From positions 1-64,000 of IMG/VR virus record IMGVR_UViG_3300017774_004101: a DNA stretch of 64,000 bases. One strand, written 5' to 3'. The position numbers were made by a program, and so were the translations under genes. The stretch comes from a virus (lineage: Duplodnaviria > Caudoviricetes). The notes beneath the pieces were generated by a model. It made no database searches. It was not told where the DNA came from and worked only from the letters and a program-made list of their open reading frames with translations. This document shows, in pieces, positions 8,390-20,646 of the stretch; positions within the stretch are counted from its first letter, which is position 1, and each line of letters starts with the position of its first letter.

Positions 8390-9049
8390 ATGAAAAACTA
8401 TTCAGCAGAAGACCTACAAAAGAATTATGATAGATTCATTGAGGCATTAAGTAAAGTATTTAGTGGTGAACGTTTAGAGAAATTAAAGTTCATGTATTCA
8501 CAAGAGGAATTGGGAACTGAATTGGTTCTTGCCCCTGCAAGTAGTAAAGAACATTATCATTCTGCATATGTTGGTGGATATTTAGACCACGTGATGAACG
8601 TTGCCCGAAACGCGTATAAGATGAAAAAGATTTACGAGGAGGGTGGAATCAAAGTAGATTTTACCGATGAGGAATTATTCTTCGCAGCCTTTCATCATGA
8701 TTTGGGTAAGTTAGGGGTGAAGGGTCAACCTCATTATGTAGAGGAGGGTTCTGATTGGCATAAGAAGAATCAAGGTGCATTATTTAAGATTAATGGTGAG
8801 AATCATTATATGGATGTAACCCATAGGGCATTGTGGTTACTTAACCAATATGGTATTACCTATTCCGAAAAGGAGATGATTGGGATTATGTTAGCAGACG
8901 GATTATACAACGAAGGTACTAAACCTTACTTTATCAGTTTCCGTCCCGAGATGAGGTTAAAAACCGACCTTCCGTACATTCTACATTGGGCTGACCATAT
9001 GAGTTGCAGACAGGAGAATAAACAATGGGAAGATTCAAAACCTTTCTAA
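8390..9049 (+). CDS. HD-domain phosphohydrolase (YhaM-like HD domain)
   Basis: APAS..HYHSAYVGGYLDH, FHHDLGKLG, LHWADHM. Confidence 0.85.
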   Translation: MKNYSAEDLQKNYDRFIEALSKVFSGERLEKLKFMYSQEELGTELVLAPASSKEHYHSAYVGGYLDHVMNVARNAYKMKKIYEEGGIKVDFTDEELFFAAFHHDLGKLGVKGQPHYVEEGSDWHKKNQGALFKINGENHYMDVTHRALWLLNQYGITYSEKEMIGIMLADGLYNEGTKPYFISFRPEMRLKTDLPYILHWADHMSCRQENKQWEDSKPF

Positions 9050-9050
9050 C

Positions 9051-9094
9051 TGACAAGTTGTCAAATAGGGTTTTAAAATACTGACAATATGTCA
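9051..9094. promoter_or_regulatory. two TGACA-N3-TGTCA palindromes (transcription-factor sites)
   Basis: TGACAAGTTGTCA 9051-9063 and TGACAATATGTCA 9082-9094, 31 bp apart, upstream of hsp20. Confidence 0.65.
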
Positions 9095-9106
9095 TAAAGT
9101 ACCCTT

Positions 9107-9121
9107 TGGTATAACAATTGT
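9107..9121 (+). promoter_or_regulatory. sigma54-like (-24/-12) promoter
   Basis: TGGTATA-ACAA-TTGT matches TGGYAYR-N4-TTGY spacing. Confidence 0.5.
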
Positions 9122-9158
9122 AATATTAGAGGTATTGTTTAACTAAAATAAAAAAATT

Positions 9159-9539
9159 ATGTACACAGCAAACATTACAAACTTATTGGATTTATTTGAA
9201 TCCGAATTACCAACTTGGAATTCAACATCAACCTATTCATCTTTCAATAGATATGAGGGTAAGGTATTGGAAGATGGGAAGTATCAATTAACTCTAAATG
9301 TATTAGGCCACAATCCAAAGAACATTAAATTAGAAGTTACTGAAACTCAGATTCTAATTAAATCAAAAAAAGAAGAGGCTAGTTCTTCATTAGTTTCAGA
9401 TATTGATTTAACTTTTACACTTGGTAAGGATTATGATGGAACTAAATCGGAAGCTAAATTTGATAATGGTTTATTAATCATTACAACTGATAAATACGAT
9501 GAGGCAAAACCAAAAAAAGTTCAAATCAAAATTGGGTAA
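9159..9539 (+). CDS. small heat shock protein (Hsp20/alpha-crystallin)
   Basis: 126 aa; A.FDNGLLII motif, K.V.I C-terminal IxI motif. Confidence 0.85.
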   Translation: MYTANITNLLDLFESELPTWNSTSTYSSFNRYEGKVLEDGKYQLTLNVLGHNPKNIKLEVTETQILIKSKKEEASSSLVSDIDLTFTLGKDYDGTKSEAKFDNGLLIITTDKYDEAKPKKVQIKIG

Positions 9540-9561
9540 TTAAATTAATAAAAAATTAATT

Positions 9562-9593
9562 AAGGGTCATCATCGTTGGTGACCTTTTTTTTT
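9562..9593 (+). terminator. intrinsic terminator
   Basis: AAGGGTCATC-ATCGTT-GGTGACCTT followed by long T run. Confidence 0.8.
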
Positions 9594-9602
9594 ATTATCT
9601 GT

Positions 9603-9611
9603 ATATTTATA
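9603..9611 (+). promoter_or_regulatory. candidate phage late promoter ATATTTATA
   Basis: Recurrent intergenic motif, here 24 nt before ATG 9636 and right after a terminator. Confidence 0.6.
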
Positions 9612-9635
9612 GACAACGAAAACAAACGAAAACAT

Positions 9636-11009
9636 ATGAAAGGTGTATTAATAGGTTCAGATTTTTTAAAATTAGCAACTGGTGTAAAATTTTTAGAAAC
9701 AAACACAGATGTAGATATAACTGATACGATGTTATCAAAATTAGAATTAGATAATTTATTTAATTATTTAACAACTAATGCTTATACTAAATTAGTTTTA
9801 ATTTACAAAATAAAGCATATAGCAGAGAGTGTAGTTAATTTATTTGAATCAACTGCTACTACAAATGGTATTACACTTGAAAAAATCATAATACCAAATA
9901 ATAGTATTACAATACCATCTATTACAACCGAATCAAACACATTTTATTTAAGATGTGCATATGATGTAACTGCTATTGTAGATGATACATATTGTAGAGA
10001 TAAATCAGAAATGACCAGTTTGTTATTTAAAACAAATAACGAAAACATTATACCAGCAACGTATGTAAAAGATATAACCGATGATACTATACGTGATAAT
10101 TTTACTACAATTAGTGATAATGGAGCCCATCCAAATGCAATTATTAAAAAGGTATTACCTGATTTTGAAAAAACAACATATCCACAATTTCGTAAACTTA
10201 ATTCTAATTCCGAATTGGAGGTATTAAAATCATCTCTTACCGACGGATTGATGTTACAAGAATATAATTTTAATAACACCGCATTAGTAGATAATAGAAT
10301 ATATGATGTTATTAGAACTTGGAATATTTTATTAGAAGATGTAGAAACAATGATTTATTTAGGTGGATATGTAACGGCAAACCAAATTGAATTAGATGAA
10401 TCAAAAATAACTTATACGGATAATATATTAGATACCAAATGGAGAACAATGTATTATTCAAATCCATTCAACGTAGCTGGTGGTGTTCCCGGTGAATATG
10501 AAGTTATAAAAATAGTAGATGGTGTGGAAGTAGTAACTAATATTACAGATATAGTTTCGGGTGATACCATTAAATCAGTAAGTTTGACAGGGTTGGCAGG
10601 TAGAGGACCTAATTATGAATTCACTGGTTCATTATCAGAATTATTCACATATACTACAGCTTCCGTTCAAAGTATAAGTACTATAAATTTTTCAGGCTGG
10701 CTACCCCATATGCATTATGAATTTAATTCTATGACCGGTAGTAGTATGCTTACATTGAATGATAAACTTATAGTAAAAGAAAATGATTCTTTTAAATTTA
10801 AAACGTTAGGACTAATTGAAAATACTGATTTACTTGTACTTTCAAATGATACCACTGCTAGTATAAATTCTATAAATTTAGAATGGTATAGTGGAAGTAT
10901 AAGTACAATAGATATAGAACAAGATGATGTGTTTGTAGCAGGTACTGAATTAAATCAAATCGGTATTGATATAACCATAGGAGGTTTAATTTTACACAAT
11001 AAAAACTAA
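9636..11009 (+). CDS. circularly permuted ATP-grasp-like ligase fused to a C-terminal Hint-like domain
   Basis: N-terminal GSDF...VKFLETNTD, NAIIKK, MLQEY; C-terminal ITDIVSGDTIKS, TIDIEQDDVFVAG, LILHN-KN; start moved to 9636 (after terminator and promoter). Confidence 0.6.
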   Translation: MKGVLIGSDFLKLATGVKFLETNTDVDITDTMLSKLELDNLFNYLTTNAYTKLVLIYKIKHIAESVVNLFESTATTNGITLEKIIIPNNSITIPSITTESNTFYLRCAYDVTAIVDDTYCRDKSEMTSLLFKTNNENIIPATYVKDITDDTIRDNFTTISDNGAHPNAIIKKVLPDFEKTTYPQFRKLNSNSELEVLKSSLTDGLMLQEYNFNNTALVDNRIYDVIRTWNILLEDVETMIYLGGYVTANQIELDESKITYTDNILDTKWRTMYYSNPFNVAGGVPGEYEVIKIVDGVEVVTNITDIVSGDTIKSVSLTGLAGRGPNYEFTGSLSELFTYTTASVQSISTINFSGWLPHMHYEFNSMTGSSMLTLNDKLIVKENDSFKFKTLGLIENTDLLVLSNDTTASINSINLEWYSGSISTIDIEQDDVFVAGTELNQIGIDITIGGLILHNKN

Positions 11010-11015
11010 AATAAA

Positions 11016-11132
11016 ATGGCAATATTACTAACACCCCTACCAATTATAACTCCAATACAAACAACGGATAAAGCAACTTGTACAACATTGTTACAAATTA
11101 TATTTGCAGCAATAAAATCAGAACATAGTTAA
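11016..11132 (+). CDS. 38-aa peptide (candidate substrate or partner)
   Basis: Own translation MAILLTPLPIITPIQTTDKATCTTLLQIIFAAIKSEHS*; A-rich leader; fills the gap exactly. Confidence 0.6.
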   Translation: MAILLTPLPIITPIQTTDKATCTTLLQIIFAAIKSEHS

Positions 11133-11144
11133 TAACTATTTACC

Positions 11145-11831
11145 ATGAATACGTTATGGGTTTTTGGTGATAGTTATAGTGCACCATTTTCTAAGATACA
11201 ACATGAGGGCCCTTGGAAATCGAATTATATACAATGGAAAGGATATACACCAAAATGTTATAGTGAATTTGTAGCAGATAAATTACAACTAAAACATATA
11301 AATTTAGCTGTTGGTGGAACTGATAATTATACCATACTTGATTCTATTATTTCAAAGGTAGATTCAATTGATACAAATGATATCATTATTATTGGATGGT
11401 CTAATACAATACGATTTAGAGTAGTAAATATACATAACGATTTCACTACAATATTAGTTTATAACGCAACTAAAACATCACGGCCGAATAATGGCTTCAA
11501 TTCTAGTACTGAATTATCCGATTCTACATTAACAGAACTAATTATTAATAGAGATAGTTCAAAGTATATTGATGAATTAAATAATTATATAAAATTAATT
11601 AATTTTTCCTTTAAAAAAAATAAAGTAATTCACTGGTCCCCATTCGTAAACGTTAGAGATAGAATATTACCAACCAAAAAATGTTTGATTAATTTAGAAA
11701 CGGTAACACAAGAAACCAATGGAATAGTAGATGATGGCCATTTTAGTGAAAATGCACATTATGAATTAGCCGAATATTTTTTAGATATAATTAATAGTTA
11801 CGAATATCCATCGGATAAAAAATACATATAA
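11145..11831 (+). CDS. SGNH/GDSL-like hydrolase or acyltransferase 1
   Basis: WVFGDSYS, NLAVGGTDN, IIGWS, DGHF. Confidence 0.8.
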   Translation: MNTLWVFGDSYSAPFSKIQHEGPWKSNYIQWKGYTPKCYSEFVADKLQLKHINLAVGGTDNYTILDSIISKVDSIDTNDIIIIGWSNTIRFRVVNIHNDFTTILVYNATKTSRPNNGFNSSTELSDSTLTELIINRDSSKYIDELNNYIKLINFSFKKNKVIHWSPFVNVRDRILPTKKCLINLETVTQETNGIVDDGHFSENAHYELAEYFLDIINSYEYPSDKKYI

Positions 11832-11832
11832 T

Positions 11833-12486
11833 ATGAATAAGTTATGGATATTTGGCGATTCTTTTTCTGCTACAAATAAACGAAAAAATATTGAACATTG
11901 GCGTATAGATTATATCAAATGGAAAGGATATGTTACTAAGGTGTGGCCTGAATATTTAAACGATAAATTAAATTTTAAATTAATAAATCTTTCTATAAGT
12001 GCAACTGATAACTATACTATATTTGATACAATAATTGATAATATAGATAAAATTGAACAAAATGATATTATAATAATAGGTTGGACATCTACTTTACGAT
12101 TTCGATTGGTTGACAAAACAAATTCCTTTAATACTATACGACCTTCTTCTAATTTTAAAACCAGTACACTTAATTTTCCGTTTGAATATAATAATATTTC
12201 ATTGAATACAATTAATGAAGTATTGGTAAATAGAGATACCGAACTATATGAATGGGAATTAAATAGATTTATTAAAATTATAAATTTATATTTAAAAGAT
12301 ATAAAAATATTACATTGGTCTCCATTTCAATTACATCACCCTCATTTAAAAATAAAAAGAATATCAGAAATAGATAAGTTGGAAACTATATCAATGGAAA
12401 CTAATGACGAATTAAATGATTACCATTATAGCGAAAATGCACATTCTATATTGAGTGAAAAAATCCATACATTACTATATGAATAA
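11833..12486 (+). CDS. SGNH/GDSL-like protein 2
   Basis: WIFGDSFS, SATDNYTI, IIGWT, DYHY. Confidence 0.8.
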   Translation: MNKLWIFGDSFSATNKRKNIEHWRIDYIKWKGYVTKVWPEYLNDKLNFKLINLSISATDNYTIFDTIIDNIDKIEQNDIIIIGWTSTLRFRLVDKTNSFNTIRPSSNFKTSTLNFPFEYNNISLNTINEVLVNRDTELYEWELNRFIKIINLYLKDIKILHWSPFQLHHPHLKIKRISEIDKLETISMETNDELNDYHYSENAHSILSEKIHTLLYE

Positions 12487-13165
12487 ACTATGGGTATTTG
12501 GAGATTCTTTTACAGAGGGGTGGGATTCATCTATGTACTATTCAAAAGATGTGTTGCCTACTTGGAGAAGTAAATATATAAATTGGAAAGGATATGTTCC
12601 AAAAGTATTCAATGAAATTCTTGCCGATAAATTAAAAATTGAAACCATAAATTGTGGTATCGGTGGAGCAGACAATTATACCATCTTCCATGCTATAATT
12701 AAAAATTTAGAAAAAATAAAAAAAAATGATATTGTAATAATAGGATGGTCTTCCGTTTTACGAATTCGAGTTGCAAACCATAATAATATATTTACACCCA
12801 TACAGGCTTGGATGTTAGGATTGACCGATGATGGGTTAAGAGATAGAGAAATAAATATTTCTCAAAAAACAATAAGGGAACTATTTGCTAATAGAACTAG
12901 CTCTGTATATGTTGATGAAATTAACGATTTAATAAAAGTTTTAAAATTACTATTAAAAGAACAAAAAGTTATAAATTGGTCTCCGTTTTATGATAATTTT
13001 AAAATGGGAATGAATATTTTACCAATACCACTATTAGATACGATAATAGATGAAACAAAATATAAAATATTAGATGGTCATTTTTGTGAACCATCTCATT
13101 TTGCATTGGCTGAATATTTTTATGATTTGATAATTAGATATAATGATAAAAAAACTTTATTATGA
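12479..13165 (+). CDS. SGNH/GDSL-like protein 3
   Basis: MNKLWVFGDSFT, GIGGADN, IIGWS, DGHF; start moved to 12479 by paralog alignment. Confidence 0.8.
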   Translation: MNKLWVFGDSFTEGWDSSMYYSKDVLPTWRSKYINWKGYVPKVFNEILADKLKIETINCGIGGADNYTIFHAIIKNLEKIKKNDIVIIGWSSVLRIRVANHNNIFTPIQAWMLGLTDDGLRDREINISQKTIRELFANRTSSVYVDEINDLIKVLKLLLKEQKVINWSPFYDNFKMGMNILPIPLLDTIIDETKYKILDGHFCEPSHFALAEYFYDLIIRYNDKKTLL

Positions 13166-13839
13166 GTAGTTTATGGATATTTGGAGATAATAATTCCGCT
13201 ATTTTTGGCAAAACACCAGAACGAAGATTTAAATACTACAAAGAATACAGAGGTGGGATATTTCCAAAAACCTGGTCAGAATTATTGTCACAAGAAATTA
13301 AACATACATTACGAAATTTAGCAGTATCCGGTCAATCTAATTATGATATTTTTGATATGTTTTGTAAATGTATAGAACAAATTCAAAAAGATGATATTGT
13401 TATAATTGGTTGGGGATATGTACAAAGATTTAGATTAATAGATGAAAATAAAAATAGTTTTATAACAATACGACCGAACCAATTTAAAGAACATCAAGTT
13501 AATATTCCCAATATGTTAAATGGTATAGATAAACATACGATAGATTTGATATTAAATAATAGAAAAAATATTTATTGGAATACCGAAATATATAACTGGG
13601 AAACTATAATAAATTTATTATCAAAATTAATCGGATTTAAGATATTATATTGGACATTTGATACTACTTTAAATAAATCCTATTATTTATCAACAAATAG
13701 TTTTAGAGAAGATTTAATTAAAAAAGGAGCTGAAGATTTTACTATGGAAACTAATGGTATTTTGAAAGATGATAATTTTGGAGAAAAAGGACATTTAGTT
13801 CAATTTGAATACTTTTTAAAACATATACAAAATGAATAA
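13162..13839 (+). CDS. SGNH-like protein 4, catalytic Ser/His replaced
   Basis: WIFGDNNS and KDDNF where paralogs have GDS and DxH. Confidence 0.75.
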   Translation: MSSLWIFGDNNSAIFGKTPERRFKYYKEYRGGIFPKTWSELLSQEIKHTLRNLAVSGQSNYDIFDMFCKCIEQIQKDDIVIIGWGYVQRFRLIDENKNSFITIRPNQFKEHQVNIPNMLNGIDKHTIDLILNNRKNIYWNTEIYNWETIINLLSKLIGFKILYWTFDTTLNKSYYLSTNSFREDLIKKGAEDFTMETNGILKDDNFGEKGHLVQFEYFLKHIQNE

Positions 13840-14680
13840 GTTATGGTGCTTCGGAGATAGTATTACAGCTGGACATGGTTGTAAATTTGAAATTATTGAT
13901 AATTTTTTAAATGAAAATACATATTATTATTTAAAATTTAAAGATTATATTGATGTTGATAAAAAAATATGGCCGGAGATTGTATCTGACAATTTAAATT
14001 TACAATTAATAAATAAAAGTAAAAATGGAATGACTAACGAATCTATATCCGATACTTGCTTAAAATTTTTAATTGAAATGAATAAAAATGATATTGTAAT
14101 ATTGCAAATAGCTAGAAATGGTAGATATGACTTTCCATTCAAAAAAGAAAAAACATTGGCTGGGTATAATGAAAAGAAATATAAAAATGATGATGAACTA
14201 TTTAATATACCAAATTCTCCATATTACTTTGAAACAATTTTTGTTTCAAATATAGAAAAAGAATGGGATGTATCAATGAAAGATGCGTTAAGACATGTAG
14301 CTATACAAGAAAAATTAGGCCCTAAAGAATTAGTATCAAATGAATCAAAATACAATTTAATAAGAGGATTTTTTGCTGAATTTGTTAATACTCAAAAATA
14401 TGATGAAAGAAGTATTTGGAGAATTATTGAACTTTCAAAGTTATTAACATCATTGGGAATTAAAAATTATATAATAAACACACCACAATGGTCGGTGTAT
14501 TTAAATAAACCAAACAATTTAATAGAAATGAGTAGTGGTGGGATAGCTGAGTATGTTGCTAAAAATAAAAAACAAATATATCACGAAAGTTTAGGAAAGA
14601 TAGATGATGGCCATCCTGGTTATTCTGGTCATATTGATATAGCTAATCATATTATAAATTTTATTAAAGATGGAAATTAA
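13832..14680 (+). CDS. SGNH/GDSL-like protein 5
   Basis: WCFGDSITAG, NKSKNGMTN, DDGHPGYSGH. Confidence 0.8.
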   Translation: MNKLWCFGDSITAGHGCKFEIIDNFLNENTYYYLKFKDYIDVDKKIWPEIVSDNLNLQLINKSKNGMTNESISDTCLKFLIEMNKNDIVILQIARNGRYDFPFKKEKTLAGYNEKKYKNDDELFNIPNSPYYFETIFVSNIEKEWDVSMKDALRHVAIQEKLGPKELVSNESKYNLIRGFFAEFVNTQKYDERSIWRIIELSKLLTSLGIKNYIINTPQWSVYLNKPNNLIEMSSGGIAEYVAKNKKQIYHESLGKIDDGHPGYSGHIDIANHIINFIKDGN

Positions 14681-15206
14681 TATTATTGAAGATTTCCTAT
14701 CAGATAGTGAGTGTGATTATATTTTAAATAAATGTAAATCAGAATTAACGTTATCTGAATTTGATAATTATTATGGTAAATTTAATAGAAAACAAAAATC
14801 TGCACGAATATACGATTTGGACTTTGTAAATCTAAAATTAAAAAATGTATTAAAAACAAAAATTAATATTAATGGAATGGAAATTTCCGATGTTATACAT
14901 AAATTTAAATTTGCAGAATATAAAATAGGTGATTATTTTGATTGGCATACCGATAATTCACCATCTTATACAAATGGTGTTATTACAACTATAATTGAAC
15001 TCAATGATAATTATGTAGGTGGTAGTTTTGAAATTAAAAATTCAAATGGTGAATTGATTCCTATTGAAAATAAAAAAGGTTCACTTTATATTTTTGATTC
15101 AGGGTTACTACATAGGGTAACCGAAATTCAATCAGGTGTTAGATATTCATTATCAAATTGGTTTTCATTAATTAAAACAAATAAAACAAAACAAAATTTA
15201 ATATAA
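14670..15206 (+). CDS. 2OG-Fe(II) oxygenase (prolyl-hydroxylase-like)
   Basis: FDWHTD, LNDNYVGG, LLHRVT, RYSLSNW. Confidence 0.9.
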   Translation: MEINIIEDFLSDSECDYILNKCKSELTLSEFDNYYGKFNRKQKSARIYDLDFVNLKLKNVLKTKININGMEISDVIHKFKFAEYKIGDYFDWHTDNSPSYTNGVITTIIELNDNYVGGSFEIKNSNGELIPIENKKGSLYIFDSGLLHRVTEIQSGVRYSLSNWFSLIKTNKTKQNLI

Positions 15207-15746
15207 ATGGAATCAAATAATATTATTGTTATTGAAAATTTTTTAACAAATGATGAGTGTGATAGTGCTTTAAATAAATGTAAAAATATTGTTCTTAAAG
15301 ATGTAGATATTCGTAATAGTGCATTTAATAGAAAAGTATCAATAGGATTTGTACATGATTTAGAATTTATAAAAATTAGATTACAAGATGTATTAAAGAA
15401 TTCAATTAATATTAATGGTATGGAAATGTCTGTGGATTATTTCCAATTTACAGAATATAAAAAAGGTGATTATTTTGATTGGCATGAAGATAGAAGTTCT
15501 AATCTTTATAGAATTGGAGTTTTTTCAACTGTTATTCAATTGAATGATAATTATGATGGTGGTATTTTAGAAATTAAAAATTTAAATGGTGAATTAGTTC
15601 CTATTGAAAATAAAAAAGGTTCACTTTATATTTTCAATCCAAATTTACTACATAGAATTACAAAAATAGAATCAGGTAGTAGGCATTCATTAATCAGCTG
15701 GATTTCGTTAATTAAAACAAATAAAACAAAACAAAATTTAATATAA
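15168..15746 (+). repeat. 39-nt exact direct repeat at the 3' ends of the two oxygenase genes (540-nt period)
   Basis: TTAATTAAAACAAATAAAACAAAACAAAATTTAATATAA at 15168-15206 and 15708-15746. Confidence 0.9.
15207..15746 (+). CDS. 2OG-Fe(II) oxygenase, tandem paralog
   Basis: FDWHED, LNDNYDGG, LLHRIT, RHSLISW. Confidence 0.9.
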   Translation: MESNNIIVIENFLTNDECDSALNKCKNIVLKDVDIRNSAFNRKVSIGFVHDLEFIKIRLQDVLKNSININGMEMSVDYFQFTEYKKGDYFDWHEDRSSNLYRIGVFSTVIQLNDNYDGGILEIKNLNGELVPIENKKGSLYIFNPNLLHRITKIESGSRHSLISWISLIKTNKTKQNLI

Positions 15747-16246
15747 TGTTACTATTTATAAAAAAATCATACGCAGATATATTTGAAGATTTTTATAATA
15801 TTACTAATGGTGATATTATAATAGGTGGTTCATTGAGTTTAAAATTACAAGATATAATTGATAGAGATATAAATGATTTAGATTTAGATATATCCAAATC
15901 TGATTGGTATAAATATGAATCTAAAATTATTAAAAAATATAAAATATATTATGAAGGAATTACGTCATTAATGCCAAGCGTAAAATATGAATATATAAAT
16001 AATACATGTTTAAATAAACAAAATAAAAATGAATTTCATTTATTTATTAATAACATTGATGATACTAAATTAGAATATAATACTATAATTTATAATAATA
16101 CCCCAATCAGAGTACGAAAACCTGAATTAGTTTTATTAGATAAAGAATGTATGTTATTAGATGATACGACAGGAAAACATATATTAGATATTGCCATAAT
16201 AAAAAAATATTTAAATGAAAAAGAAACTACTAATAGCTGGGGATAG
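15746..16246 (+). CDS. Pol-beta-superfamily nucleotidyltransferase-like protein
   Basis: IIGGSLSL ... RDINDLDLDI; KH..D near C-terminus. Confidence 0.7.
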   Translation: MLLFIKKSYADIFEDFYNITNGDIIIGGSLSLKLQDIIDRDINDLDLDISKSDWYKYESKIIKKYKIYYEGITSLMPSVKYEYINNTCLNKQNKNEFHLFINNIDDTKLEYNTIIYNNTPIRVRKPELVLLDKECMLLDDTTGKHILDIAIIKKYLNEKETTNSWG

Positions 16247-16790
16247 CTTTGCAGCTGATTGGACGAAAAAATACAAAAATGTATGTGGTTGGGTTAACAT
16301 GTTAGAATCCGACTATGATGTTACAAATATCGCACAAGCTGGAGTTAGTGAATACAAAATTTACAAACAATTAGAAAAAATAGACACTACAAAATTTGAA
16401 CATATTATAATATCACATACATCTGCATATAGAATACCAATAGAAGAACATCCAATTCATAAAGATGATTCACTGCATGATGATTGTGATATAATTTATT
16501 CAGATGCAGAGGTACATATTGAAAATAATATAATGAAAACTGCAGTTGATTTTTATGTAAATATTTTTCATCCTGAGTATTTTTGTTTTGTAAATGATTT
16601 AATTTTTAAAGAAATAAAAAAAATCACACCAAACGCAATCCATATAACATTTTTTGATAATTTTTATGATAATAGTATTTTAAAATTTGAAGATATTTTC
16701 TTATCTCACAAAGGAAATATAAATCATTTAGACGAAAAAGGAAATAGTTTATTTTATAATATTATAAAAAATATATTAAATGAAAAATAA
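16215..16790 (+). CDS. SGNH-like protein 6
   Basis: LIAGDSFAAD, NIAQAGVSEY, INHL. Confidence 0.75.
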   Translation: MKKKLLIAGDSFAADWTKKYKNVCGWVNMLESDYDVTNIAQAGVSEYKIYKQLEKIDTTKFEHIIISHTSAYRIPIEEHPIHKDDSLHDDCDIIYSDAEVHIENNIMKTAVDFYVNIFHPEYFCFVNDLIFKEIKKITPNAIHITFFDNFYDNSILKFEDIFLSHKGNINHLDEKGNSLFYNIIKNILNEK

Positions 16791-17340
16791 AATTGCAATA
16801 TTTGTATGTGGTAGCGGTGGCAGCGGTAAATCTACTTTTGTAAAAACACATTTTACTGAATATATTCATATAGATATGGATATAATATATGAAGAATTAC
16901 TATTATTAAATAACTTAGGATTAAAAATAAAAGATTTTAATGAATCACAATCGCAACTAGCATTGGAATTATTTGAAACCGCAAAGGAATTAAATAATGA
17001 AAAATTAAAAAATACAATAATTGCGGGTAATAATTTAGTAATAGATGGAGTTGGTAGAGATTCTAATATTATTTTAAATCAAAGAAAACATTTAGAAAAT
17101 TTAGGATATACAACCCATATGGTGATGTTGTATGTTGATTTAGAAGTATGTATTGATAGGGTTGAGCGTAGAGAACGGGTTTATAACCAAAGCATTATAA
17201 AAGATAGTTGGTATCGTTCTTATAATAATATTGGGACTTATAAAAAAGAATTTGATGATAAATTTAAATTTGTTTATGATATTAATAATTTTATATTAGA
17301 TGATTTCATCAAATTAAAACATAATATAAATTTAATTTAA
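16780..17340 (+). CDS. P-loop kinase (zeta-toxin/AAA_33-like)
   Basis: CGSGGSGKST, IDMD, LVIDG, RVERRER lid. Confidence 0.8.
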   Translation: MKNKIAIFVCGSGGSGKSTFVKTHFTEYIHIDMDIIYEELLLLNNLGLKIKDFNESQSQLALELFETAKELNNEKLKNTIIAGNNLVIDGVGRDSNIILNQRKHLENLGYTTHMVMLYVDLEVCIDRVERRERVYNQSIIKDSWYRSYNNIGTYKKEFDDKFKFVYDINNFILDDFIKLKHNINLI

Positions 17341-17871
17341 ATGAAAATATTAATTTACACAACACATAGAACCGGTTCAACATCTTTAGCACATTTATTG
17401 ATGACCCACTATAACTGTGATTATCAAAGAGAATCATTTTTTAAAAATAAAAACTTTTTTAAAACAATTGATAGTATTGAAAATATTATAATAAAATTAA
17501 CACCGGCTGAAATTGATTATAATTTAGTAAGAAATATATTTGATAAATGTATTGTATTAACTAGAAATGATATACGAGCACAATCAGAAAGTAGAGCTTA
17601 TGCTCATCATATTATAAAATACCACGTTCCATATATAATAGATGATTTATTTTTAAAAGAACGTGATGATGAATTAAATAAGTGGGATACCATAATAAAA
17701 AAAGAAAATGGGATATTAAATAAATGTGAAAATTGTTTACAAATTACATATGAAGATTTATATTATAGTGATGGTTTAAAAAAAATTGAAGAATATTTAA
17801 ATACAACTTTTAATCTTCTAAAATTAGATAATTCTAAAAAATATAGAAACGGAAAAAAAAGTATAATATAA
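17341..17871 (+). CDS. sulfotransferase-like protein (Stf0/P-loop type)
   Basis: YTTHRTGSTSL (5'-PSB-like), IVLTRND..AQSES, ITYEDLY. Confidence 0.7.
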   Translation: MKILIYTTHRTGSTSLAHLLMTHYNCDYQRESFFKNKNFFKTIDSIENIIIKLTPAEIDYNLVRNIFDKCIVLTRNDIRAQSESRAYAHHIIKYHVPYIIDDLFLKERDDELNKWDTIIKKENGILNKCENCLQITYEDLYYSDGLKKIEEYLNTTFNLLKLDNSKKYRNGKKSII

Positions 17872-17874
17872 ATT

Positions 17875-18468
17875 ATGAAAATATTAATATATACAGGCTA
17901 TAGAACTGGTTCCAATTCACTTGGAGAATGGTCATCTATTCAATTAGATTTACCATATCATCACGAACCATTTAATAAAATGAACAAAACAAGTGTCAAC
18001 CTTTTTACAAATAAAAATTTTTCAATAGAAGAAGCCGGAGATTGTATAATGAAAATATCACCATTTGATGGGTTTGATTATGAGGAATTAAAAAAATTAT
18101 TTGATAAGAGAATAGTGTTATATAGAGAAAATACCAGAGAACAATCTGAAAGTTTAATATGGTCTAATGAGAAAAAATTATGGCATCATACATATTTAGA
18201 TGATAAATTTATAAGTGCACACTACACTATACCAATTGAATGGTTGGATAAAAATGCAGAATCAATTAAATGTATGGAAGCGGATTTGCAAAAAGAAAAT
18301 GAATTGTTAAAATCATTAACCGATTGTTTACACATAACATACGAAGAATTATATTATTCAGATAATGGTATTAAAAAAATAGAAGATTATATAGGATTTA
18401 AATACAAAACAAAGTTTAACAAAATACATAAATTAAGAAATGGTTTTATTAAAAAATCATTAACATAA
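17875..18468 (+). CDS. sulfotransferase-like protein, paralog
   Basis: YTGYRTGSNSL, HEPF, VLYREN..EQSES, ITYEELY. Confidence 0.7.
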   Translation: MKILIYTGYRTGSNSLGEWSSIQLDLPYHHEPFNKMNKTSVNLFTNKNFSIEEAGDCIMKISPFDGFDYEELKKLFDKRIVLYRENTREQSESLIWSNEKKLWHHTYLDDKFISAHYTIPIEWLDKNAESIKCMEADLQKENELLKSLTDCLHITYEELYYSDNGIKKIEDYIGFKYKTKFNKIHKLRNGFIKKSLT

Positions 18469-18494
18469 TAAAAAATTTGATTTAACAAATTATA

Positions 18495-19178
18495 ATGATA
18501 AGAGTTTATTATCACATATATTCAATAGAAGGGGTAGAATCAATAATTGATGAACAGCTTTCTTTAATAGAAAAACATTTTGATTTTCCGTATATTTTAA
18601 ATATTGGTATCTCAATTGCAGATGATACTTCTCCAACCAATTCTATTATAAAACAATTACATACTTACAATAACGTAAAGAATATAGTAAAAGATACATA
18701 TAAAAAAGGAAACGAATTTGTTACATTAAATTTAATAGAAAAAGATAAAGAAACATTTGCAGATTCGGATTATATTTTTTATTTTCATACTAAAGGTGCA
18801 TCTAATTTAAAAAATAAAAATAAATATCCAAATGCTGTGAATTGGAGAAATTTAATGCAATATTTTAATATTGAAAGATATAAAGTTGTATTTAGAGTAT
18901 TTGATACTATGGATTTTAACACATATGGCATGGCCTTAAAAAATATATCAAATGCTATACCACGTGATATTCCATATTATCATGGTAATTTTTGGTGGAT
19001 GACTGCTGAATATGCAAAAACGATAAATATAGATAGTATTGATACATCTAAAAGATGGGAGGCTGAATTTCAATATATTCAAAAGGGTATAAATTGGAAA
19101 CCATATTCAGAATATAATAATGGTGAACCTAATTATAAAATAAATTTAAGAAAAGAAGATTATAATTCACTAATATAA
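18495..19178 (+). CDS. putative glycosyltransferase-like protein
   Basis: VYYHI, NEF.TL, FYFHTKG, WR..M.YF, YHGNFWW motifs typical of a viral GT-like family. Confidence 0.5.
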   Translation: MIRVYYHIYSIEGVESIIDEQLSLIEKHFDFPYILNIGISIADDTSPTNSIIKQLHTYNNVKNIVKDTYKKGNEFVTLNLIEKDKETFADSDYIFYFHTKGASNLKNKNKYPNAVNWRNLMQYFNIERYKVVFRVFDTMDFNTYGMALKNISNAIPRDIPYYHGNFWWMTAEYAKTINIDSIDTSKRWEAEFQYIQKGINWKPYSEYNNGEPNYKINLRKEDYNSLI

Positions 19179-19185
19179 TCAATTC

Positions 19186-19220
19186 GGTAATATATAAATA
19201 TATAAAATTACCTCTTTTTT
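19186..19220 (+). terminator. weak possible terminator ending the accessory cluster
   Basis: GGTAAT...ATTACC stem followed by TCTTTTTT. Confidence 0.35.
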
Positions 19221-19229
19221 ATATCGGAC

Positions 19230-19238
19230 ATATTTATA
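19230..19238 (+). promoter_or_regulatory. candidate phage late promoter ATATTTATA
   Basis: 22 nt upstream of ATG 19261. Confidence 0.55.
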
Positions 19239-19260
19239 GGTGTACATTTAAATACAAATT

Positions 19261-19440
19261 ATGAAACCAGAATACAAAATGAGAGCTCAAGAAAATTTAG
19301 AAGCAATTACTAAAAGAGCTAAAGTTATCGCAGAAATGTTAAAGGGTGAACGTCCTGCTAATCAAGCGGAGGCAGTTAAGTTATCAAATGAAATTGAAAA
19401 ATTAGTAGAACTAACAACAAACATCGTAGATTTATCGTAA
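19261..19440 (+). CDS. small helical hypothetical protein (59 aa)
   Basis: Own translation MKPEYKMRAQENLEAITKRAKVIAEMLKGERP...VDLS*. Confidence 0.7.
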   Translation: MKPEYKMRAQENLEAITKRAKVIAEMLKGERPANQAEAVKLSNEIEKLVELTTNIVDLS

Positions 19441-19441
19441 A

Positions 19442-20644
19442 ATGAATTGGTTAAAGTATTTAGTCGGATTATCAGCGGTAATCGTTGCCGGATGTGCTGC
19501 GTACTTTTCAGTAACGGGATTAGGTGTTTTATTTGCTGGAGCTTCACTTTCAGTAATGGTGATGGCAGGTTCATTAGAATTTGCTAAATTAGTTGCTGCT
19601 ACTTATCTAAAACAAAAGTGGGATGATATCGGTGGGTTTAACAAATGGTATCTAACAAGTGCCGTAGGTATTCTTATGTTGATTACCTCTGCAGGCATTT
19701 TTGGATATCTTTCTAATGCGTTTCAACAACAAAATTTAGGATTGCAAAAAGTAGATAGAGATATTGCAGTTTACCAAACTCAAATTACTAAGAACGACGG
19801 GGAGATAGTAAGATACACTACTCAACTAACTAACCAACAAAATATCAGAAATTCACAAGAGAGTAACTTATCTAAACAAATTGATAAGGATAAATCTACA
19901 TCTAGAGTATCTCAGATGATTAAATCTGCAGATAGGGAAATTACTTCGATATCAAAACGAATTGATGAATTAACTATAAAAAATAACGCAGCGTTAGATT
20001 CTATAAATGTTATTAAAAATAATAATATTGAATTAGAAAAAGAAGTTGGTGGGTTTCGTTTTGTGGCAGAAGCGTTTAACGTACCACTTAACTCCGTTGT
20101 TAAATTTTTTATATTCATTATCGTATTTGTATTTGACCCACTTGCAGTTGCACTTATCATTGCATTCAATGGATTGATTGGTAAAAAAAATATGTATGGT
20201 GAGAAAGAACCCTTAGTGGAAAAAAATTATCAAATATATAAAGATAGTGAAAAAAATTCTACAAAAGAAGATATTTTAAGTGGTATGGTGGAAGATAATC
20301 AACAAGCAGGATTATACGAACCTCCTTTTGAAAATCCACTAATAGATGAACCAGATGAAGATTTATTAAACCTCAAACCTGATTATACGGTCAGACCGAT
20401 TGATTATGATAGAGATGGTTCTATTGATGGATATGATACCGATGGTGATGGATTAATAAATGAAGTAACCGCACATCCAAATAGAGCTCAGATAATTAGA
20501 GATTATAAACCCTATTACGCATTTGAAGGATTTGATTGGAGTGATAAGACAAAATGGATAAATGACCAGAATGCGGTTAACTATTGGATTAGATATATAA
20601 AACCATCTCAATATCCAACCGATTTTTCAAGTAAAACTTATTAA
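19442..20644 (+). CDS. multi-TM membrane protein with coiled coil and DxDxDG motifs
   Basis: N-terminal TM helices, coiled coil, IVFVFDPLAV TM, DYDRDGSIDGYDTDGDG. Confidence 0.8.
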   Translation: MNWLKYLVGLSAVIVAGCAAYFSVTGLGVLFAGASLSVMVMAGSLEFAKLVAATYLKQKWDDIGGFNKWYLTSAVGILMLITSAGIFGYLSNAFQQQNLGLQKVDRDIAVYQTQITKNDGEIVRYTTQLTNQQNIRNSQESNLSKQIDKDKSTSRVSQMIKSADREITSISKRIDELTIKNNAALDSINVIKNNNIELEKEVGGFRFVAEAFNVPLNSVVKFFIFIIVFVFDPLAVALIIAFNGLIGKKNMYGEKEPLVEKNYQIYKDSEKNSTKEDILSGMVEDNQQAGLYEPPFENPLIDEPDEDLLNLKPDYTVRPIDYDRDGSIDGYDTDGDGLINEVTAHPNRAQIIRDYKPYYAFEGFDWSDKTKWINDQNAVNYWIRYIKPSQYPTDFSSKTY

Positions 20645-20646
20645 CA

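What the first reader, a model, noticed from the sequence alone, without database searches (positions are those of the whole stretch)
9603..19178. Phage operon: permuted ATP-grasp-Hint fusion, 38-aa peptide and 13 tailoring enzymes (candidate novel modification system)
Seen: one tightly packed unit between a terminator plus ATATTTATA motif and a weak terminator. It starts with a protein carrying ATP-grasp-type D...ExN motifs at its N-terminus and a Hint-like C-terminus, then an unannotated 38-aa Thr-rich peptide, six SGNH proteins, two 2OG-Fe(II) oxygenases, an NTase, a kinase, two sulfotransferase-like proteins and a GT-like protein. Established: these families ligate, acylate/deacylate, hydroxylate, nucleotidylate, phosphorylate, sulfate and glycosylate. 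Inference: a RiPP-like or virion/cell-surface decoration pathway expressed late; I know of no characterised phage system with this layout.
Basis: partly seen in the sequence, partly recalled or inferred. Interest (0 to 1): 0.88.

Follow-up and report, generated by a model that had tools for sequence, protein, structure and literature searches.

The report
Phage ATP-grasp–Hint ligase with partner peptide
An uncultured freshwater phage carries an operon whose first protein joins a peptide-ligase-type ATP-grasp domain to an intein-like Hint domain, followed by a small conserved peptide predicted to dock onto it and a string of decorating enzymes, a layout not found described in the literature searched.

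Summary
Window 9636-19178 is one same-strand, tightly packed gene string behind a terminator (9562-9587).

**ORF1 (457 aa)** has no Pfam or PHROG match. Its AlphaFold model (pLDDT 93) has two domains:
- Residues 1-279 are a circularly permuted ATP-grasp of the glutathione-synthetase / glutathionylspermidine-synthetase / YgiC type.
- Residues 280-457 are a Hint/intein fold.

D9, E21, N23, R106, D116, R227 and N455 are invariant in 71 relatives; K171 and H454 are nearly so. The Hint domain has no conserved first-position nucleophile.

**The 38-aa ORF** recurs after the ORF1 homologue in 15 of 16 related contigs. It always ends in a helix plus K/A-H-S/T and is under purifying selection. It lies on exact-match contigs from RNA libraries. 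It is predicted to bind the ATP-grasp domain (score 0.81, best control 0.02).

**Other genes:** SGNH, 2OG oxygenase and P-loop kinase labels are confirmed. The nucleotidyltransferase and sulfotransferase labels are leads. 'GT-like' is unsupported (DUF8361).

Related phages keep the ligase, peptide, kinase, nucleotidyltransferase and SGNH genes, and add tryptophan halogenase, APS kinase and carbamoyltransferase.

**Best reading (about 0.5):** a peptide-centred ligation and tailoring pathway. The chemistry and product are unknown.

The parts
9562..9587 (+). Terminator-like hairpin (11 pairs) followed by a T run; ends the upstream Hsp20 gene
   Evidence: RNA-library contigs stop at 9535-9564 while a DNA contig runs on (weak hint).
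9603..9612 (+). ATATTTATAG motif, candidate phage promoter element 24 nt upstream of the ORF1 start
   Evidence: All 4 exact copies in the window are on the + strand, 3-22 nt upstream of a start codon. With 1 mismatch the count (27) is no more than chance (29 +/- 5.6).
9636..10472 (+). ORF1 residues 1-279: circularly permuted ATP-grasp domain (GS/GspS/YgiC type) with invariant D9, E21-x-N23, R106, D116, R227 and near-invariant K171
10473..11009 (+). ORF1 residues 280-457 plus stop: Hint/intein-fold domain. It has no conserved position-1 nucleophile. H454 is in 68 of 71 and N455 in 71 of 71 relatives. Only a 2-residue tail follows the Asn.
11016..11132 (+). 38-aa partner peptide: variable Thr/Pro-rich N-terminal part, invariant Lys19, amphipathic helix, C-terminal His-Ser
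11145..11831 (+). SGNH/GDSL-fold protein SG1
11833..12486 (+). SGNH paralogue SG2 (44% identical to SG1)
12479..13165 (+). SGNH paralogue SG3 (43% to SG1); ATG 12479 taken as the start by homology
13162..13839 (+). SGNH paralogue SG4; block I reads G-D-N, so the usual nucleophile Ser is replaced. The same holds in its orthologues in L005, L006 and L008.
13832..14680 (+). SGNH paralogue SG5 (longer, with an insertion)
14670..15206 (+). 2OG-Fe(II) oxygenase a (prolyl-hydroxylase-type, PF13640)
15207..15746 (+). 2OG-Fe(II) oxygenase b, tandem paralogue (59% identical)
15746..16246 (+). 166-aa protein, candidate minimal nucleotidyltransferase (AbiEii / aminoglycoside-NTase-like model neighbours)
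   Evidence: No Pfam, PHROG or NCBIfam family.
16215..16790 (+). Divergent SGNH-like protein SG6 (G-D-S block present, 23% to SG1)
   Evidence: no family match
16780..17340 (+). P-loop kinase (AAA_33 / Zeta-toxin type)
17341..17871 (+). Sulfotransferase-like protein ST1 (weak)
17875..18468 (+). Sulfotransferase-like protein ST2 (38% to ST1)
18495..19178 (+).
   Evidence: 66-67% identical homologues in L001, L002 and L017
19186..19220 (+). Weak hairpin (6-bp stem, 15-nt loop) plus T run after the last gene
   Evidence: read by eye; not reported by the scan
19230..19239 (+). Second exact ATATTTATAG motif, 22 nt upstream of the next gene (19261)

Best explanation
The operon is a phage-borne peptide ligation and tailoring module.

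Shown or predicted here:
- ORF1 is a two-domain protein. An ATP-grasp amide ligase of the permuted glutathione-synthetase / glutathionylspermidine-synthetase / YgiC kind is fused to a Hint domain. The Hint domain keeps only the C-terminal His-Asn pair.
- The small gene next to it encodes a 31-53 aa peptide.
- The peptide's conserved C-terminal helix is predicted to dock on the ATP-grasp domain.

Inferred:
- The ligase uses ATP to activate a carboxylate and joins it to an amine. That carboxylate is most likely the peptide's conserved C-terminal end; alternatively a small acid is joined to the peptide's invariant Lys.
- The neighbouring nucleotidyltransferase-like protein, P-loop kinase, SGNH acyl-hydrolases/transferases, 2OG oxygenases and sulfotransferase-like proteins then decorate the peptide or the group attached to it.
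- The Hint domain's terminal Asn cyclises to cut off whatever follows it. That is two residues here, and Cys-rich tails, a second Hint or a chaperone domain in relatives.

The product and its use to the phage are unknown.
For: Fold. The AlphaFold model from 71 sequences has pLDDT 93.3 and pTM 0.87.
- Residues 280-457 match inteins, BIL and Hedgehog Hint domains at Z 16.6-15.2, rmsd about 2 A over 135-145 residues. The family profile also hits the KlbA intein by sequence, E 9.4e-8.
- Residues 1-279 match only ATP-grasp ligases. YgiC gives Z 9.1 over 204 residues; GspS, glutathione and homoglutathione synthetases and Cp1B give Z 7-9. The top Foldseek hit is YgiC, E 1.8e-6.
- Classical ATP-grasps (LysX/ArgX, RimK) align only from model residue about 50. 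The permuted GS/GspS type aligns from residue 1-2, so the N-terminal D...ExN segment is permuted.
- YgiC and YjfC are cited as peptide-spermidine ligases in passages of PMC12568646.

Conservation. D9, E21, N23, R106, D116, R227 and N455 are in 71 of 71 relatives, K171 in 70 of 71 and H454 in 68 of 71.

Peptide.
- It is present directly downstream in 15 of 16 related contigs whose 3' flank is held, down to 24% ORF1 identity. Lys19 and His37 are invariant and Ser/Thr38 is conserved.
- pN/pS is below 1 in 54 of 55 pairs over the last 20 codons.
- Exact-match contigs from three RNA libraries lie over the peptide gene. Two span from the ORF1 3' end across it into SG1; the third covers most of it and the start of SG1.

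Binding. Complex score 0.81 (three runs 0.80-0.85) against a best control of 0.02. The calibration mark was reached by 58 of 80 solved complexes and 2 of 110 mismatched pairs. Runs agree in at least 75% of contacts and partner pLDDT is at least 77. My own alignments were used, so the calibration counts hold only roughly.

Synteny among 18 distinct related contigs:
- SGNH-like 14
- ST-like 12
- 2OG oxygenase 11
- NTase-like 10
- kinase 9
- the order NTase-like, kinase, ORF1, peptide in 9

Related islands add tryptophan halogenase (E 1e-97 and 3e-95), APS kinase (E 4e-17), a SPASM-domain protein and a methyltransferase-like protein, plus carbamoyltransferase.
Against: - No ATP-grasp Pfam family matches any of the 71 family members at E <= 1e-3, and no NCBIfam family matches ORF1. 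The ATP-grasp call therefore rests on a predicted structure at middling Z (about 9).
- The peptide helix packs between the sheet (residues 8, 10, 17, 19, 226-232) and helix 126-135. That looks like a buried structural element as much as a substrate.
- The last residue (38) is not among the confident contacts.
- I had no coordinates, so I could not check whether the peptide's end or Lys19 reaches the active site.
- The tailoring genes vary greatly between contigs, and the 12-18 kb part has a lower GC of 23-25%. This is also what a hypervariable island of unrelated auxiliary genes would look like.
- No background rate of these enzyme families in random phage stretches was measured. The loci were found through ORF1, and three of them are near-identical.
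- A two-residue tail gives the Hint Asn little to cleave in this copy.
- RNA-library contigs cannot exclude carried-over DNA.
Confidence: 0.5

Rival explanations
1. The small peptide is not a substrate. It is an obligate structural or regulatory subunit of the ligase: a split-off helix that completes the ATP-grasp fold or supplies Lys/His/Ser to the active site. The true substrates would be something else, such as a host protein, a polyamine-peptide or a glycan.
For: The peptide helix is predicted to be sandwiched between the central sheet and helix 126-135 of the ATP-grasp domain. ORF1 aligns to YgiC only from chain residue 94 and so lacks that enzyme's first ~93 residues; a trans helix could replace them. 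The conserved part of the peptide is the helix and its end, whereas the N-terminal part varies in length and sequence.
Against: A variable, low-complexity Thr/Ser/Pro/Ala-rich N-terminal part of 10-30 residues is kept in every copy, which a pure structural helix would not need. Residues 8-14 are also in confident contact. An invariant C-terminal His-Ser/Thr at the very end resembles carrier or substrate termini. The ORF1 model folds at pLDDT 93 without the peptide.
Confidence: 0.22
2. Only ORF1 and the peptide (perhaps with the kinase and nucleotidyltransferase-like protein) form a unit. The SGNH, sulfotransferase-like, 2OG, carbamoyltransferase and DUF8361 genes are independent auxiliary genes of a hypervariable island. 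They would modify host envelope glycans or small molecules, in the way of Nod-factor-type acetyl, sulfate and carbamoyl decoration.
For: Gene content and order of the tailoring part differ between contigs, and genes are duplicated in tandem: five adjacent SGNH paralogues plus a divergent sixth, two 2OG genes at 59% identity, and two ST-like genes. The part from 12 to 18 kb has a lower GC than the flanks. The nearest solved SGNH structures are carbohydrate esterases, peptidoglycan O-acetyltransferase PatB and thioesterases. The island sits at a fixed place beside the HD, Hsp20 and membrane-protein genes in many contigs.
Against: SGNH genes follow the peptide gene directly in the window and in 13 of the 15 contigs that have the peptide; the exceptions are L010 and L012, and in L018 a 2OG gene lies between. 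All genes are packed on one strand with no internal terminator found. Halogenase and SPASM-type genes in related islands are typical of peptide or small-molecule natural products rather than envelope glycans.
Confidence: 0.2
3. ORF1 is a virion or fibre-associated protein. Its C-terminal self-cleaving modules serve assembly, and the enzyme-like fold is incidental.
For: Eight of 71 family members carry a tail with the S-D-x-x-x-K-type motif, and 3 of 71 match Pfam Peptidase_S74, the intramolecular chaperone of tail fibres and spikes. In L001, L002 and L007 a giant ORF of 1709-2141 aa follows the island.
Against: The window copy has no such tail. The operon lies about 20 kb from the baseplate and tail genes. 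The invariant residues cluster in the ATP-grasp domain as expected of an enzyme. No PHROG structural family matches.
Confidence: 0.04
4. The Hint part is a selfish intein that happens to sit at the end of an ATP-grasp gene.
For: The best sequence match is a class-2 intein (KlbA, E 9.4e-8). Some relatives have Cys right after the His-Asn (5 of 71 at +1, 16 of 71 at +2).
Against: The domain is present in all 71 relatives down to about 20% identity with N455 invariant, so it co-evolves with the enzyme. There is no conserved position-1 nucleophile, no homing endonuclease insert (the domain is about 175 aa), and in the window copy no residue after the Asn that could splice.
Confidence: 0.03

Closest known systems
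Glutathionylspermidine synthetase family ATP-grasp ligases, especially E. coli YgiC/YjfC peptide-spermidine ligases (PDB 7uk8, 7uka, 7uk6; 2io7)
   Same: They are the best structural matches to ORF1 residues 1-279 (Foldseek E 1.8e-6; Z 9.1 over 204 residues). They share the permuted order, with the acidic D...ExN segment first. Their chemistry would suit a peptide with a conserved C-terminus: a peptide C-terminal carboxylate joined to an amine (passages of PMC12568646).
   Different: There is no detectable sequence relationship. ORF1 lacks the first ~93 residues of YgiC. It is fused to a Hint domain, paired with a dedicated small peptide gene, and phage-encoded.
Graspetide (microviridin-type) RiPP systems: ATP-grasp ligase plus precursor peptide whose conserved helix binds the enzyme (recalled)
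   Same: An ATP-grasp enzyme lies next to a small peptide gene. A conserved amphipathic helix of the peptide is predicted to dock on the enzyme. The variable part of the peptide is Thr/Ser-rich.
   Different: The ATP-grasp is of the GS/GspS type, not the MdnB/MdnC type; none of those appears among the listed matches (so this is inconclusive rather than excluded). The conserved helix is at the C-terminal end rather than in an N-terminal leader. There is only one conserved acidic residue. The Hint fusion and the many extra enzymes have no counterpart.
Amino-group carrier protein systems (LysW with LysX/ArgX) and scaffold-peptide (pearlin) pathways (the latter recalled)
   Same: A small peptide with a conserved C-terminal end serves an ATP-dependent ligase. 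The tethered group is then worked on by kinases and other enzymes. LysX/ArgX with LysW appear among the structural matches (Z 6.3 and 5.7). A tryptophan halogenase in related islands recalls the ammosamide scaffold pathway.
   Different: The peptide has no zinc ribbon and no acidic EDWGE-type end. The similarity to LysX is weaker than to GspS-type enzymes. No aminoacyl-tRNA-dependent ligase is present.
Hint superfamily: inteins, bacterial intein-like (BIL) domains, Hedgehog autoprocessing domain
   Same: The fold matches (Z 15-16.6) and the profile gives a sequence match. The penultimate His and terminal Asn that drive C-terminal cleavage by succinimide formation are kept.
   Different: There is no conserved Cys/Ser/Thr at position 1, and no other conserved His in the domain. 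The domain sits at the very end of an enzyme, with only two residues after the Asn in this copy. It is a fixed part of the family rather than a mobile insert.

Membership tests
ATP-grasp superfamily (permuted GS/GspS type) | ATP-grasp fold of the ligase core | tested here: met
   Predicted model only. YgiC Z 9.1, rmsd 4.4 A over 204 residues; GspS, GS, hGS and Cp1B Z 7-9. All N-domain rows are ATP-grasp ligases. Foldseek top hit is YgiC, E 1.8e-6.
ATP-grasp superfamily (permuted GS/GspS type) | Circular permutation placing the Mg-binding acidic/Asn segment before the rest of the fold | tested here: met
   GS/GspS/YgiC chains align from model residue 1-2. Classical LysX/ArgX and RimK align only from residue 49-51 to their own first ~205-216 residues.
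ATP-grasp superfamily (permuted GS/GspS type) | Conserved Mg/ATP-binding residues at the catalytic positions | tested here: inconclusive
   D9, E21, N23 and R227 are in 71 of 71 and K171 in 70 of 71. I had no residue-level superposition. Model residue 2 pairs with GspS residue 311. An ungapped reading puts D9/E21/N23 at 318/330/332, which I recall as the GspS Mg triad; this is recalled and not checked.
ATP-grasp superfamily (permuted GS/GspS type) | Sequence-profile membership in a curated ATP-grasp family | tested here: not met
   0 of 71 members match any ATP-grasp Pfam model at E <= 1e-3. ORF1 has no Pfam, PHROG, NCBIfam or PADLOC match.
ATP-grasp superfamily (permuted GS/GspS type) | ATP-dependent carboxylate-amine ligation | not testable with these tools
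   Needs an enzyme assay.
Hint / intein superfamily | Hint fold | tested here: met
   Z 16.6, rmsd 2.0 A over 135 residues to the NpuDnaB intein; 28 rows with Z >= 9.1 are Hint domains.
Hint / intein superfamily | Sequence similarity to known Hint domains | tested here: met
   Profile A2 against the PDB: KlbA intein E 9.4e-8, Pol II inteins about 5e-4, BIL2 about 7e-3. The window protein alone has no Pfam Hint match. The Pfam Hint matches in 19 of 71 relatives lie in their extra second Hint.
Hint / intein superfamily | Nucleophile (Cys/Ser/Thr) at position 1 | tested here: not met
   The column of G283 holds Gly 20, gap 19, Val 6, Lys 4, Thr 4 and others, of 71.
Hint / intein superfamily | Penultimate His and terminal Asn | tested here: met
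   H454 in 68 of 71, N455 in 71 of 71.
Hint / intein superfamily | Nucleophile at +1 for splicing | tested here: not met
   The window tail is Lys-Asn. Across the family Cys is at +1 in 5 of 71, with Ser 2 and Thr 2.
RiPP / graspetide-type system | Small precursor-like peptide gene next to the ATP-grasp gene, conserved across relatives | tested here: met
   15 of 16 contigs with a 3' flank, plus the window.
RiPP / graspetide-type system | Covalent modification of the peptide | not testable with these tools
   Needs mass spectrometry.
RiPP / graspetide-type system | Enzyme-peptide binding | tested here: met
   Prediction only: score 0.81 against best control 0.02. The mark was reached by 58 of 80 solved and 2 of 110 mismatched pairs. 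Contact agreement at least 75%, partner pLDDT at least 77.
SGNH/GDSL hydrolase superfamily (six ORFs) | SGNH fold | tested here: met
   SG1 model pLDDT 85.6. Z 12.6, rmsd 3.0 A over 157 residues; all 50 listed rows are GDSL/SGNH-type enzymes. Only SG1 was folded.
SGNH/GDSL hydrolase superfamily (six ORFs) | Ser, Gly, Asn and His of blocks I, II, III and V | tested here: met
   In A4 (24 sequences) G8 and D9 are invariant and G58, N61, D197 and H199 are at least 90% conserved. SG4 and its orthologues have Asn instead of the Ser.
SGNH/GDSL hydrolase superfamily (six ORFs) | Pfam score above the curated cut-off | tested here: not met
   Best is 22.3 bits against 32.9 (Lipase_GDSL_2) and 19.5 against 23.6 (Lipase_GDSL).
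2OG-Fe(II) oxygenase | Pfam 2OG-FeII_Oxy_3 above cut-off | tested here: met
   51.2 and 44.7 bits against 27; PHROG 61 at E 4.5e-27 and 1.2e-28.
P-loop kinase (AAA_33 / Zeta toxin) | Pfam above cut-off | tested here: met
   40.7 bits against 27, and 32.8 against 22.3.
Sulfotransferase | Family profile match | tested here: inconclusive
   ST1 E 0.013. Five of 23 relatives match (best 2.9e-4). PDB profile: CurM ST E 0.09, NodH 0.8. R10, G12, R75 and S84 are invariant in A5, and S13 and S15 are at least 90% conserved. This fits PAPS-loop motifs as I recall them. An APS kinase lies in related islands.
Nucleotidyltransferase (Pol-beta fold) | Fold and G-S...D-x-D motif | tested here: inconclusive
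   Atlas model neighbours at TM 0.64-0.72 are AbiEii, Aminoglyc_resit and DUF6036 clusters. No profile match.
Glycosyltransferase (18495-19178) | Any GT family or fold match | tested here: inconclusive
   No Pfam, PHROG or NCBIfam match. Nearest Atlas clusters are DUF8361; a GT-named cluster is at rank 28 only. No structure was made.

The most novel reading that the evidence does not exclude
This is a new class of self-processing peptide-ligase systems carried by phages. An ATP-grasp enzyme is permanently fused to a cleavage-only Hint domain and works with genetically encoded peptides in two forms. One is a trans peptide ending in Lys/Ala-His-Ser that acts as substrate or carrier scaffold. The other, in most relatives, is the enzyme's own tail, released by Asn cyclisation; these tails are typically 21-84 residues with an even number (4-12) of cysteines and often end in Lys. 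The ligase would join or cyclise these pieces. A changing set of halogenase, sulfation, carbamoylation, hydroxylation, acylation, phosphorylation and nucleotidylation enzymes would then build a phage-made natural product on them.
Probability: 0.3. Interest if true: 0.92.

Novelty: new variant of a known kind. Interest (0 to 1): 0.82.

Why it matters
- Phages are not usually regarded as makers of tailored peptides or peptide-borne small molecules. A conserved, transcribed ligase-peptide pair with up to a dozen decorating enzymes would add a biosynthetic capacity to large aquatic phages.
- A Hint domain kept only for its terminal His-Asn and fused to a ligase is an unexplored use of intein chemistry. 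It could be useful for protein engineering, for example ligation coupled to self-release.
- The family is large: 212 clusters at 50% identity in public metagenomes. It has no match in Pfam, PHROGs, NCBIfam or PADLOC, no match in 50,697 GenBank phage records, and no two-domain match among BFVD viral models.
- The prediction is directly testable with two small genes in E. coli.

Tried and rejected
- Megablast of 9000-20700 against GenBank phages: no match.
- tblastn of ORF1 against the same records: no match at E <= 1e-3.
- Pattern scan of 185,579 species genomes with two ORF1 motifs: 10 pattern hits, none a relative. This tests only those two patterns, so cellular homologues are not excluded.
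- Whole-genome search: no genome is held for this window.
- Profile searches of A1 (ORF1 close relatives) and A4 (SGNH) against PDB sequences gave nothing useful.
- PADLOC gave only a generic 2OG hit. NCBIfam gave only sub-threshold dioxygenase and kinase hits.
- R2K/CDC123-type ATP-grasp was considered after reading passages of PMC7824862 and PMC4431377. ORF1 gave no Pfam match at E <= 0.1, and no CDC123 structure is in the listed fold matches. That reading is left as unsupported, not excluded.
- Literature: searches for 'ATP-grasp' + 'Hint domain' + 'phage' (2 papers, unrelated), for ATP-grasp/intein/fusion/bacteriophage/peptide ligase (17 papers) and for RiPP/phage-encoded/BGC/ATP-grasp (98 papers, 12 listed) showed no description of this fusion in the listings and passages I saw. 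PMC3268129 (Iyer et al. 2009, amidoligases) is not held and might bear on it.
- Parts of the operon without RNA-library cover (for example 17850-19265 in X6, X7 and X17) say nothing, since these are contigs.
- The tblastn of the conserved neighbour 21791-22684 only showed it to be a UV-damage endonuclease, and the helicase gave 34-38% matches. The host remains open.
- Early searches used 9633 as the ORF1 start (one codon too far upstream), and one search used 12482 for SG3 (one codon short). Neither changes a result.

Full report
**Setting.** The window is part of a large uncultured myovirus-like phage. Its ORFs match PHROGs for RNA ligase, DNA helicase, baseplate wedge, a tail-lysozyme-like protein and an SbcC-like nuclease. 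GC is about 30%, falling to 23-25% between 12 and 18 kb. No whole genome is held. No GenBank phage matches the region at the DNA level. The helicase is only 34-38% identical to those of Bacteroides and Cellulophaga phages, so the host is open. Public runs that hold the stretch are labelled freshwater or lake metagenomes. One related contig is labelled marine.

**Checking the observation.** From ATG 9636 to the stop at 19178 there are sixteen + strand ORFs, separated by 0-26 nt or overlapping by 1-32 nt.
- Upstream, the Hsp20 gene ends in the only terminator-like hairpin found between 8900 and 19600 (9562-9587).
- This is followed by ATATTTATAG at 9603-9612. The same ten bases recur at 19230-19239, just after the last gene.
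- All four exact copies in the window are on the + strand, 3-22 nt upstream of a start codon. With one mismatch allowed, the count is at chance level.

**ORF1.** It has no match in Pfam, PHROGs, NCBIfam or PADLOC. It does have many relatives in metagenomes: 402 proteins at E <= 0.001 among the 8000 candidates scored, and 212 cluster representatives at E <= 0.001 in the exhaustive search. An AlphaFold model built on 71 diverse members is confident (pLDDT 93.3, pTM 0.87).
- *Hint domain.* Residues 280-457 superpose on inteins, bacterial intein-like domains and the Hedgehog autoprocessing domain (Z 16.6 to 15.2, rmsd about 2 A, 135-145 residues). The family profile also finds the KlbA intein by sequence (E 9.4e-8).
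- *ATP-grasp domain.* Residues 1-279 match only ATP-grasp amide ligases: YgiC, glutathionylspermidine synthetase, glutathione and homoglutathione synthetases, and the E-64 ligase Cp1B (Z 7-9.1 over 190-224 residues). The top Foldseek hit is YgiC at E 1.8e-6.
- *Permutation.* These enzymes align from model residue 1-2. Classical ATP-grasps (LysX/ArgX, RimK) align only from residue about 50.
- *Invariant residues.* D9, E21, N23, R106, D116, R227 and N455 are invariant in 71 sequences. K171 (70 of 71) and H454 (68 of 71) are nearly so.
- *Weak point.* No curated ATP-grasp profile matches any of the 71 members, so this assignment rests on the predicted fold.

**What kind of Hint domain.** The position that holds the nucleophile in inteins is Gly in the window protein and is not conserved in the family. 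No other His in the domain is conserved. The last two residues of the fold, His-Asn, are kept throughout. This is the residue set needed for C-terminal cleavage by Asn cyclisation (established intein chemistry, recalled), but not for the first steps of splicing.

What follows the Asn varies widely. By a rough length-and-motif sort, the 71 members fall into:

| Tail class | Members |
|---|---|
| 15 residues or fewer (the window has Lys-Asn) | 10 |
| 16-109 residues | 31 |
| 110 residues or more, largely a second Hint domain that begins with Cys | 22 |
| Motif of the Peptidase_S74 tail-fibre chaperone | 8 |

Pfam agrees with the last two classes: Intein_splicing matches 19 of 71 and Peptidase_S74 matches 3 of 71. 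In a separate listing of the 33 tails of 16-109 residues, made without the S74 sort, 31 contain cysteines (21-84 residues long). All 31 have an even number of them (4-12), and 15 end in Lys. No protein in the BFVD viral library shares the two-domain architecture (best TM by query 0.30, all hits through the Hint part).

**The peptide.** The 38-codon ORF at 11016-11132 starts 6 nt after ORF1 and ends 12 nt before the next gene.
- *Recurrence.* Sixteen distinct related contigs have the 3' flank of the ORF1 homologue. Fifteen of them have an ATG-started ORF of 31-53 codons in the same place. This holds even where ORF1 identity is only 24-26%. The exception is L011, a distant relative with a Cys-rich tail.
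- *Shape.* The N-terminal part varies in length and sequence. Then come an invariant Lys (usually preceded by Asp or Glu), an amphipathic helix and a C-terminal His-Ser; one copy has His-Thr and one has an extra Asn.
- *Selection.* Over the last 20 codons, non-synonymous change is lower than synonymous change in 54 of 55 pairs, while synonymous sites are often near saturation.
- *Transcription.* Contigs from three RNA libraries match the window without a single difference. In two of them one contig spans the ORF1 end, the whole peptide gene and the start of SG1. The third covers most of the peptide gene and the start of SG1. RNA-library contigs stop at 9535-9564 and resume at 9638-9643, while a DNA contig runs through. 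This is a weak hint of a transcript boundary at the terminator and motif. Carried-over DNA cannot be excluded.

**Predicted binding.** ORF1 and the peptide were folded together with their alignments and scored 0.81 (runs 0.80-0.85). The best of three controls scored 0.02. The calibration mark was reached by 58 of 80 solved complexes and 2 of 110 mismatched pairs. The runs agree in at least 75% of contacts, and partner pLDDT is at least 77. My own alignments were used, so the calibration counts hold only roughly. Peptide residues 21-37 lie between the ATP-grasp sheet (8, 10, 17, 19, 226-232) and helix 126-135. Residues 8-14 and 18-19 also touch, and a few Hint residues (357, 374, 391-392) are in contact. 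This supports binding but does not show it. It also does not tell a substrate from a subunit.

**The other genes.**
- *SGNH.* SG1 folds as an SGNH/GDSL enzyme (Z 12.6, rmsd 3.0 A over 157 residues; all 50 listed rows are of that superfamily). The six paralogues and 18 relatives keep the Ser, Gly, Asn and His blocks. SG4 and its orthologues have Asn for the Ser.
- *2OG oxygenases.* The two are solid and 59% identical to each other.
- *Kinase.* It passes the Pfam cut-offs.
- *166-aa protein.* Nine of its ten Atlas structure neighbours are nucleotidyltransferase-type clusters (TM 0.64-0.72). This is a lead.
- *Sulfotransferase-like proteins.* These two are supported only weakly. However, related islands carry an APS kinase (E 4e-17), which makes the sulfate donor.
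- *Last gene.* It is a viral DUF8361 protein, and a glycosyltransferase label is not supported.

**Synteny.** Counts are over 18 distinct related contigs, labelled by BLASTP against the window's proteins at E <= 1e-3. Duplicates L009 and L019 are left out. L016 and L020 are cut inside ORF1. L001, L002 and L017 are near-identical.

| Family near the ORF1 homologue | Contigs (of 18) |
|---|---|
| SGNH-like | 14 |
| ST-like | 12 |
| 2OG oxygenase | 11 |
| NTase-like | 10 |
| Kinase | 9 |
| Carbamoyltransferase | 6 |
| DUF8361 | 3 |

Nine contigs have the order NTase-like, kinase, ORF1, peptide. Related islands also hold tryptophan halogenases (E 1e-97 and 3e-95), a SPASM-domain protein and a methyltransferase-like protein. 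I measured no background rate, so the co-occurrence is descriptive.

**How it most likely works.**
- *Shown or predicted here:* the two folds, the conserved residues, the conserved and selected peptide, the predicted docking, the RNA-library cover and the gene neighbourhood.
- *Inferred:* the ligase activates a carboxylate with ATP and forms an amide. By analogy with YgiC/YjfC and GspS, this would join a peptide's C-terminal carboxylate to an amine (passages of PMC12568646). The neighbours would then add or remove acyl, phosphate, nucleotide, sulfate and hydroxyl groups on the Thr-rich peptide or on the attached group. The Hint Asn would trim the enzyme's tail.
- *Odds:* I put about 0.5 on this peptide-centred pathway and about 0.2 on the peptide being a structural subunit. 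About 0.2 goes to the tailoring genes being an unrelated auxiliary island. Small odds go to a structural (fibre) role or a selfish intein.

**Comparison and novelty.** The parts are known kinds: a GspS-type ATP-grasp, a Hint domain, SGNH, 2OG, a kinase. The logic of a ligase plus a small peptide resembles graspetides, LysW/LysX and scaffold-peptide pathways. Several features are new as far as my searches reach:
- the permanent fusion of such a ligase to a cleavage-only Hint domain;
- the dedicated peptide with a conserved His-Ser end;
- the family's changing self-cleaving or Cys-rich tails;
- the phage setting.

I rate it a new variant of a known kind. There is a substantial chance that it is a new class of self-processing peptide-ligase system.

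Noticed in passing
window 2358-2367, 9603-9612, 19230-19239, 38698-38707: All four exact copies of ATATTTATAG are on the + strand in intergenic DNA, 3-22 nt upstream of a start codon (2370, 9636, 19261, 38730). This is a candidate phage promoter element. With one mismatch the count is at chance level.
   Followed up: partly
family of ORF1 (alignment A2, proteins P0122-P0270): After the invariant His-Asn, relatives carry very different tails. Among the 33 tails of 16-109 residues, 31 contain cysteines, and all 31 have an even number (4-12); 15 of them end in Lys. Other relatives carry a second Hint domain starting with Cys, or a Peptidase_S74 tail-fibre chaperone. This suggests peptides released by the Hint domain.
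   Followed up: partly
L005 5332-6594, L006 2508-3731, L002 7616-8050, L003 6507-7670, L002 9028-9675: Islands around ORF1 homologues in related phages hold tryptophan halogenases (E about 1e-95), an APS kinase (E 4e-17), a SPASM-domain protein and a methyltransferase-like protein. None of these is in the window.
   Followed up: partly
window 12000-18000: GC falls to 23-25% across the tailoring genes, against 30-33% in the flanks. The same stretch holds tandem paralogues: five adjacent SGNH genes plus a sixth, two 2OG genes at 59% identity with identical last 13 residues, and two ST-like genes.
   Followed up: partly
window 13162-13839; L005 9388-10089, L006 8781-9458, L008 10402-11073: One SGNH subfamily has Gly-Asp-Asn instead of Gly-Asp-Ser in block I. 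It may therefore be inactive or use another nucleophile.
   Followed up: no
L006 7107-7316, L007 11860-12069: In two contigs with the 617-aa form, a 69-aa hydrophobic ORF sits between the ORF1 homologue and the small peptide gene.
   Followed up: no
L011 10001-11611 and 12554-12694: The one distant relative without the His-Ser peptide has a Cys-rich tail on the ligase. A separate 46-aa ORF with 8 cysteines lies about 0.9 kb downstream.
   Followed up: no
window 8390-9539, 19442-22684, 31928-33643: The island sits between the HD-phosphohydrolase-like and Hsp20 genes and a 400-aa membrane protein. An IscA/HesB-like gene (phrog_17776) and a UV-damage endonuclease follow. A NodU-type carbamoyltransferase lies 13 kb further on. 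The same neighbours recur in related contigs.
   Followed up: partly
window 9535-9643: Contigs from RNA libraries of three studies end at 9535-9564 and, in two of them, resume at 9638-9643. A DNA-run contig covers the gap.
   Followed up: partly
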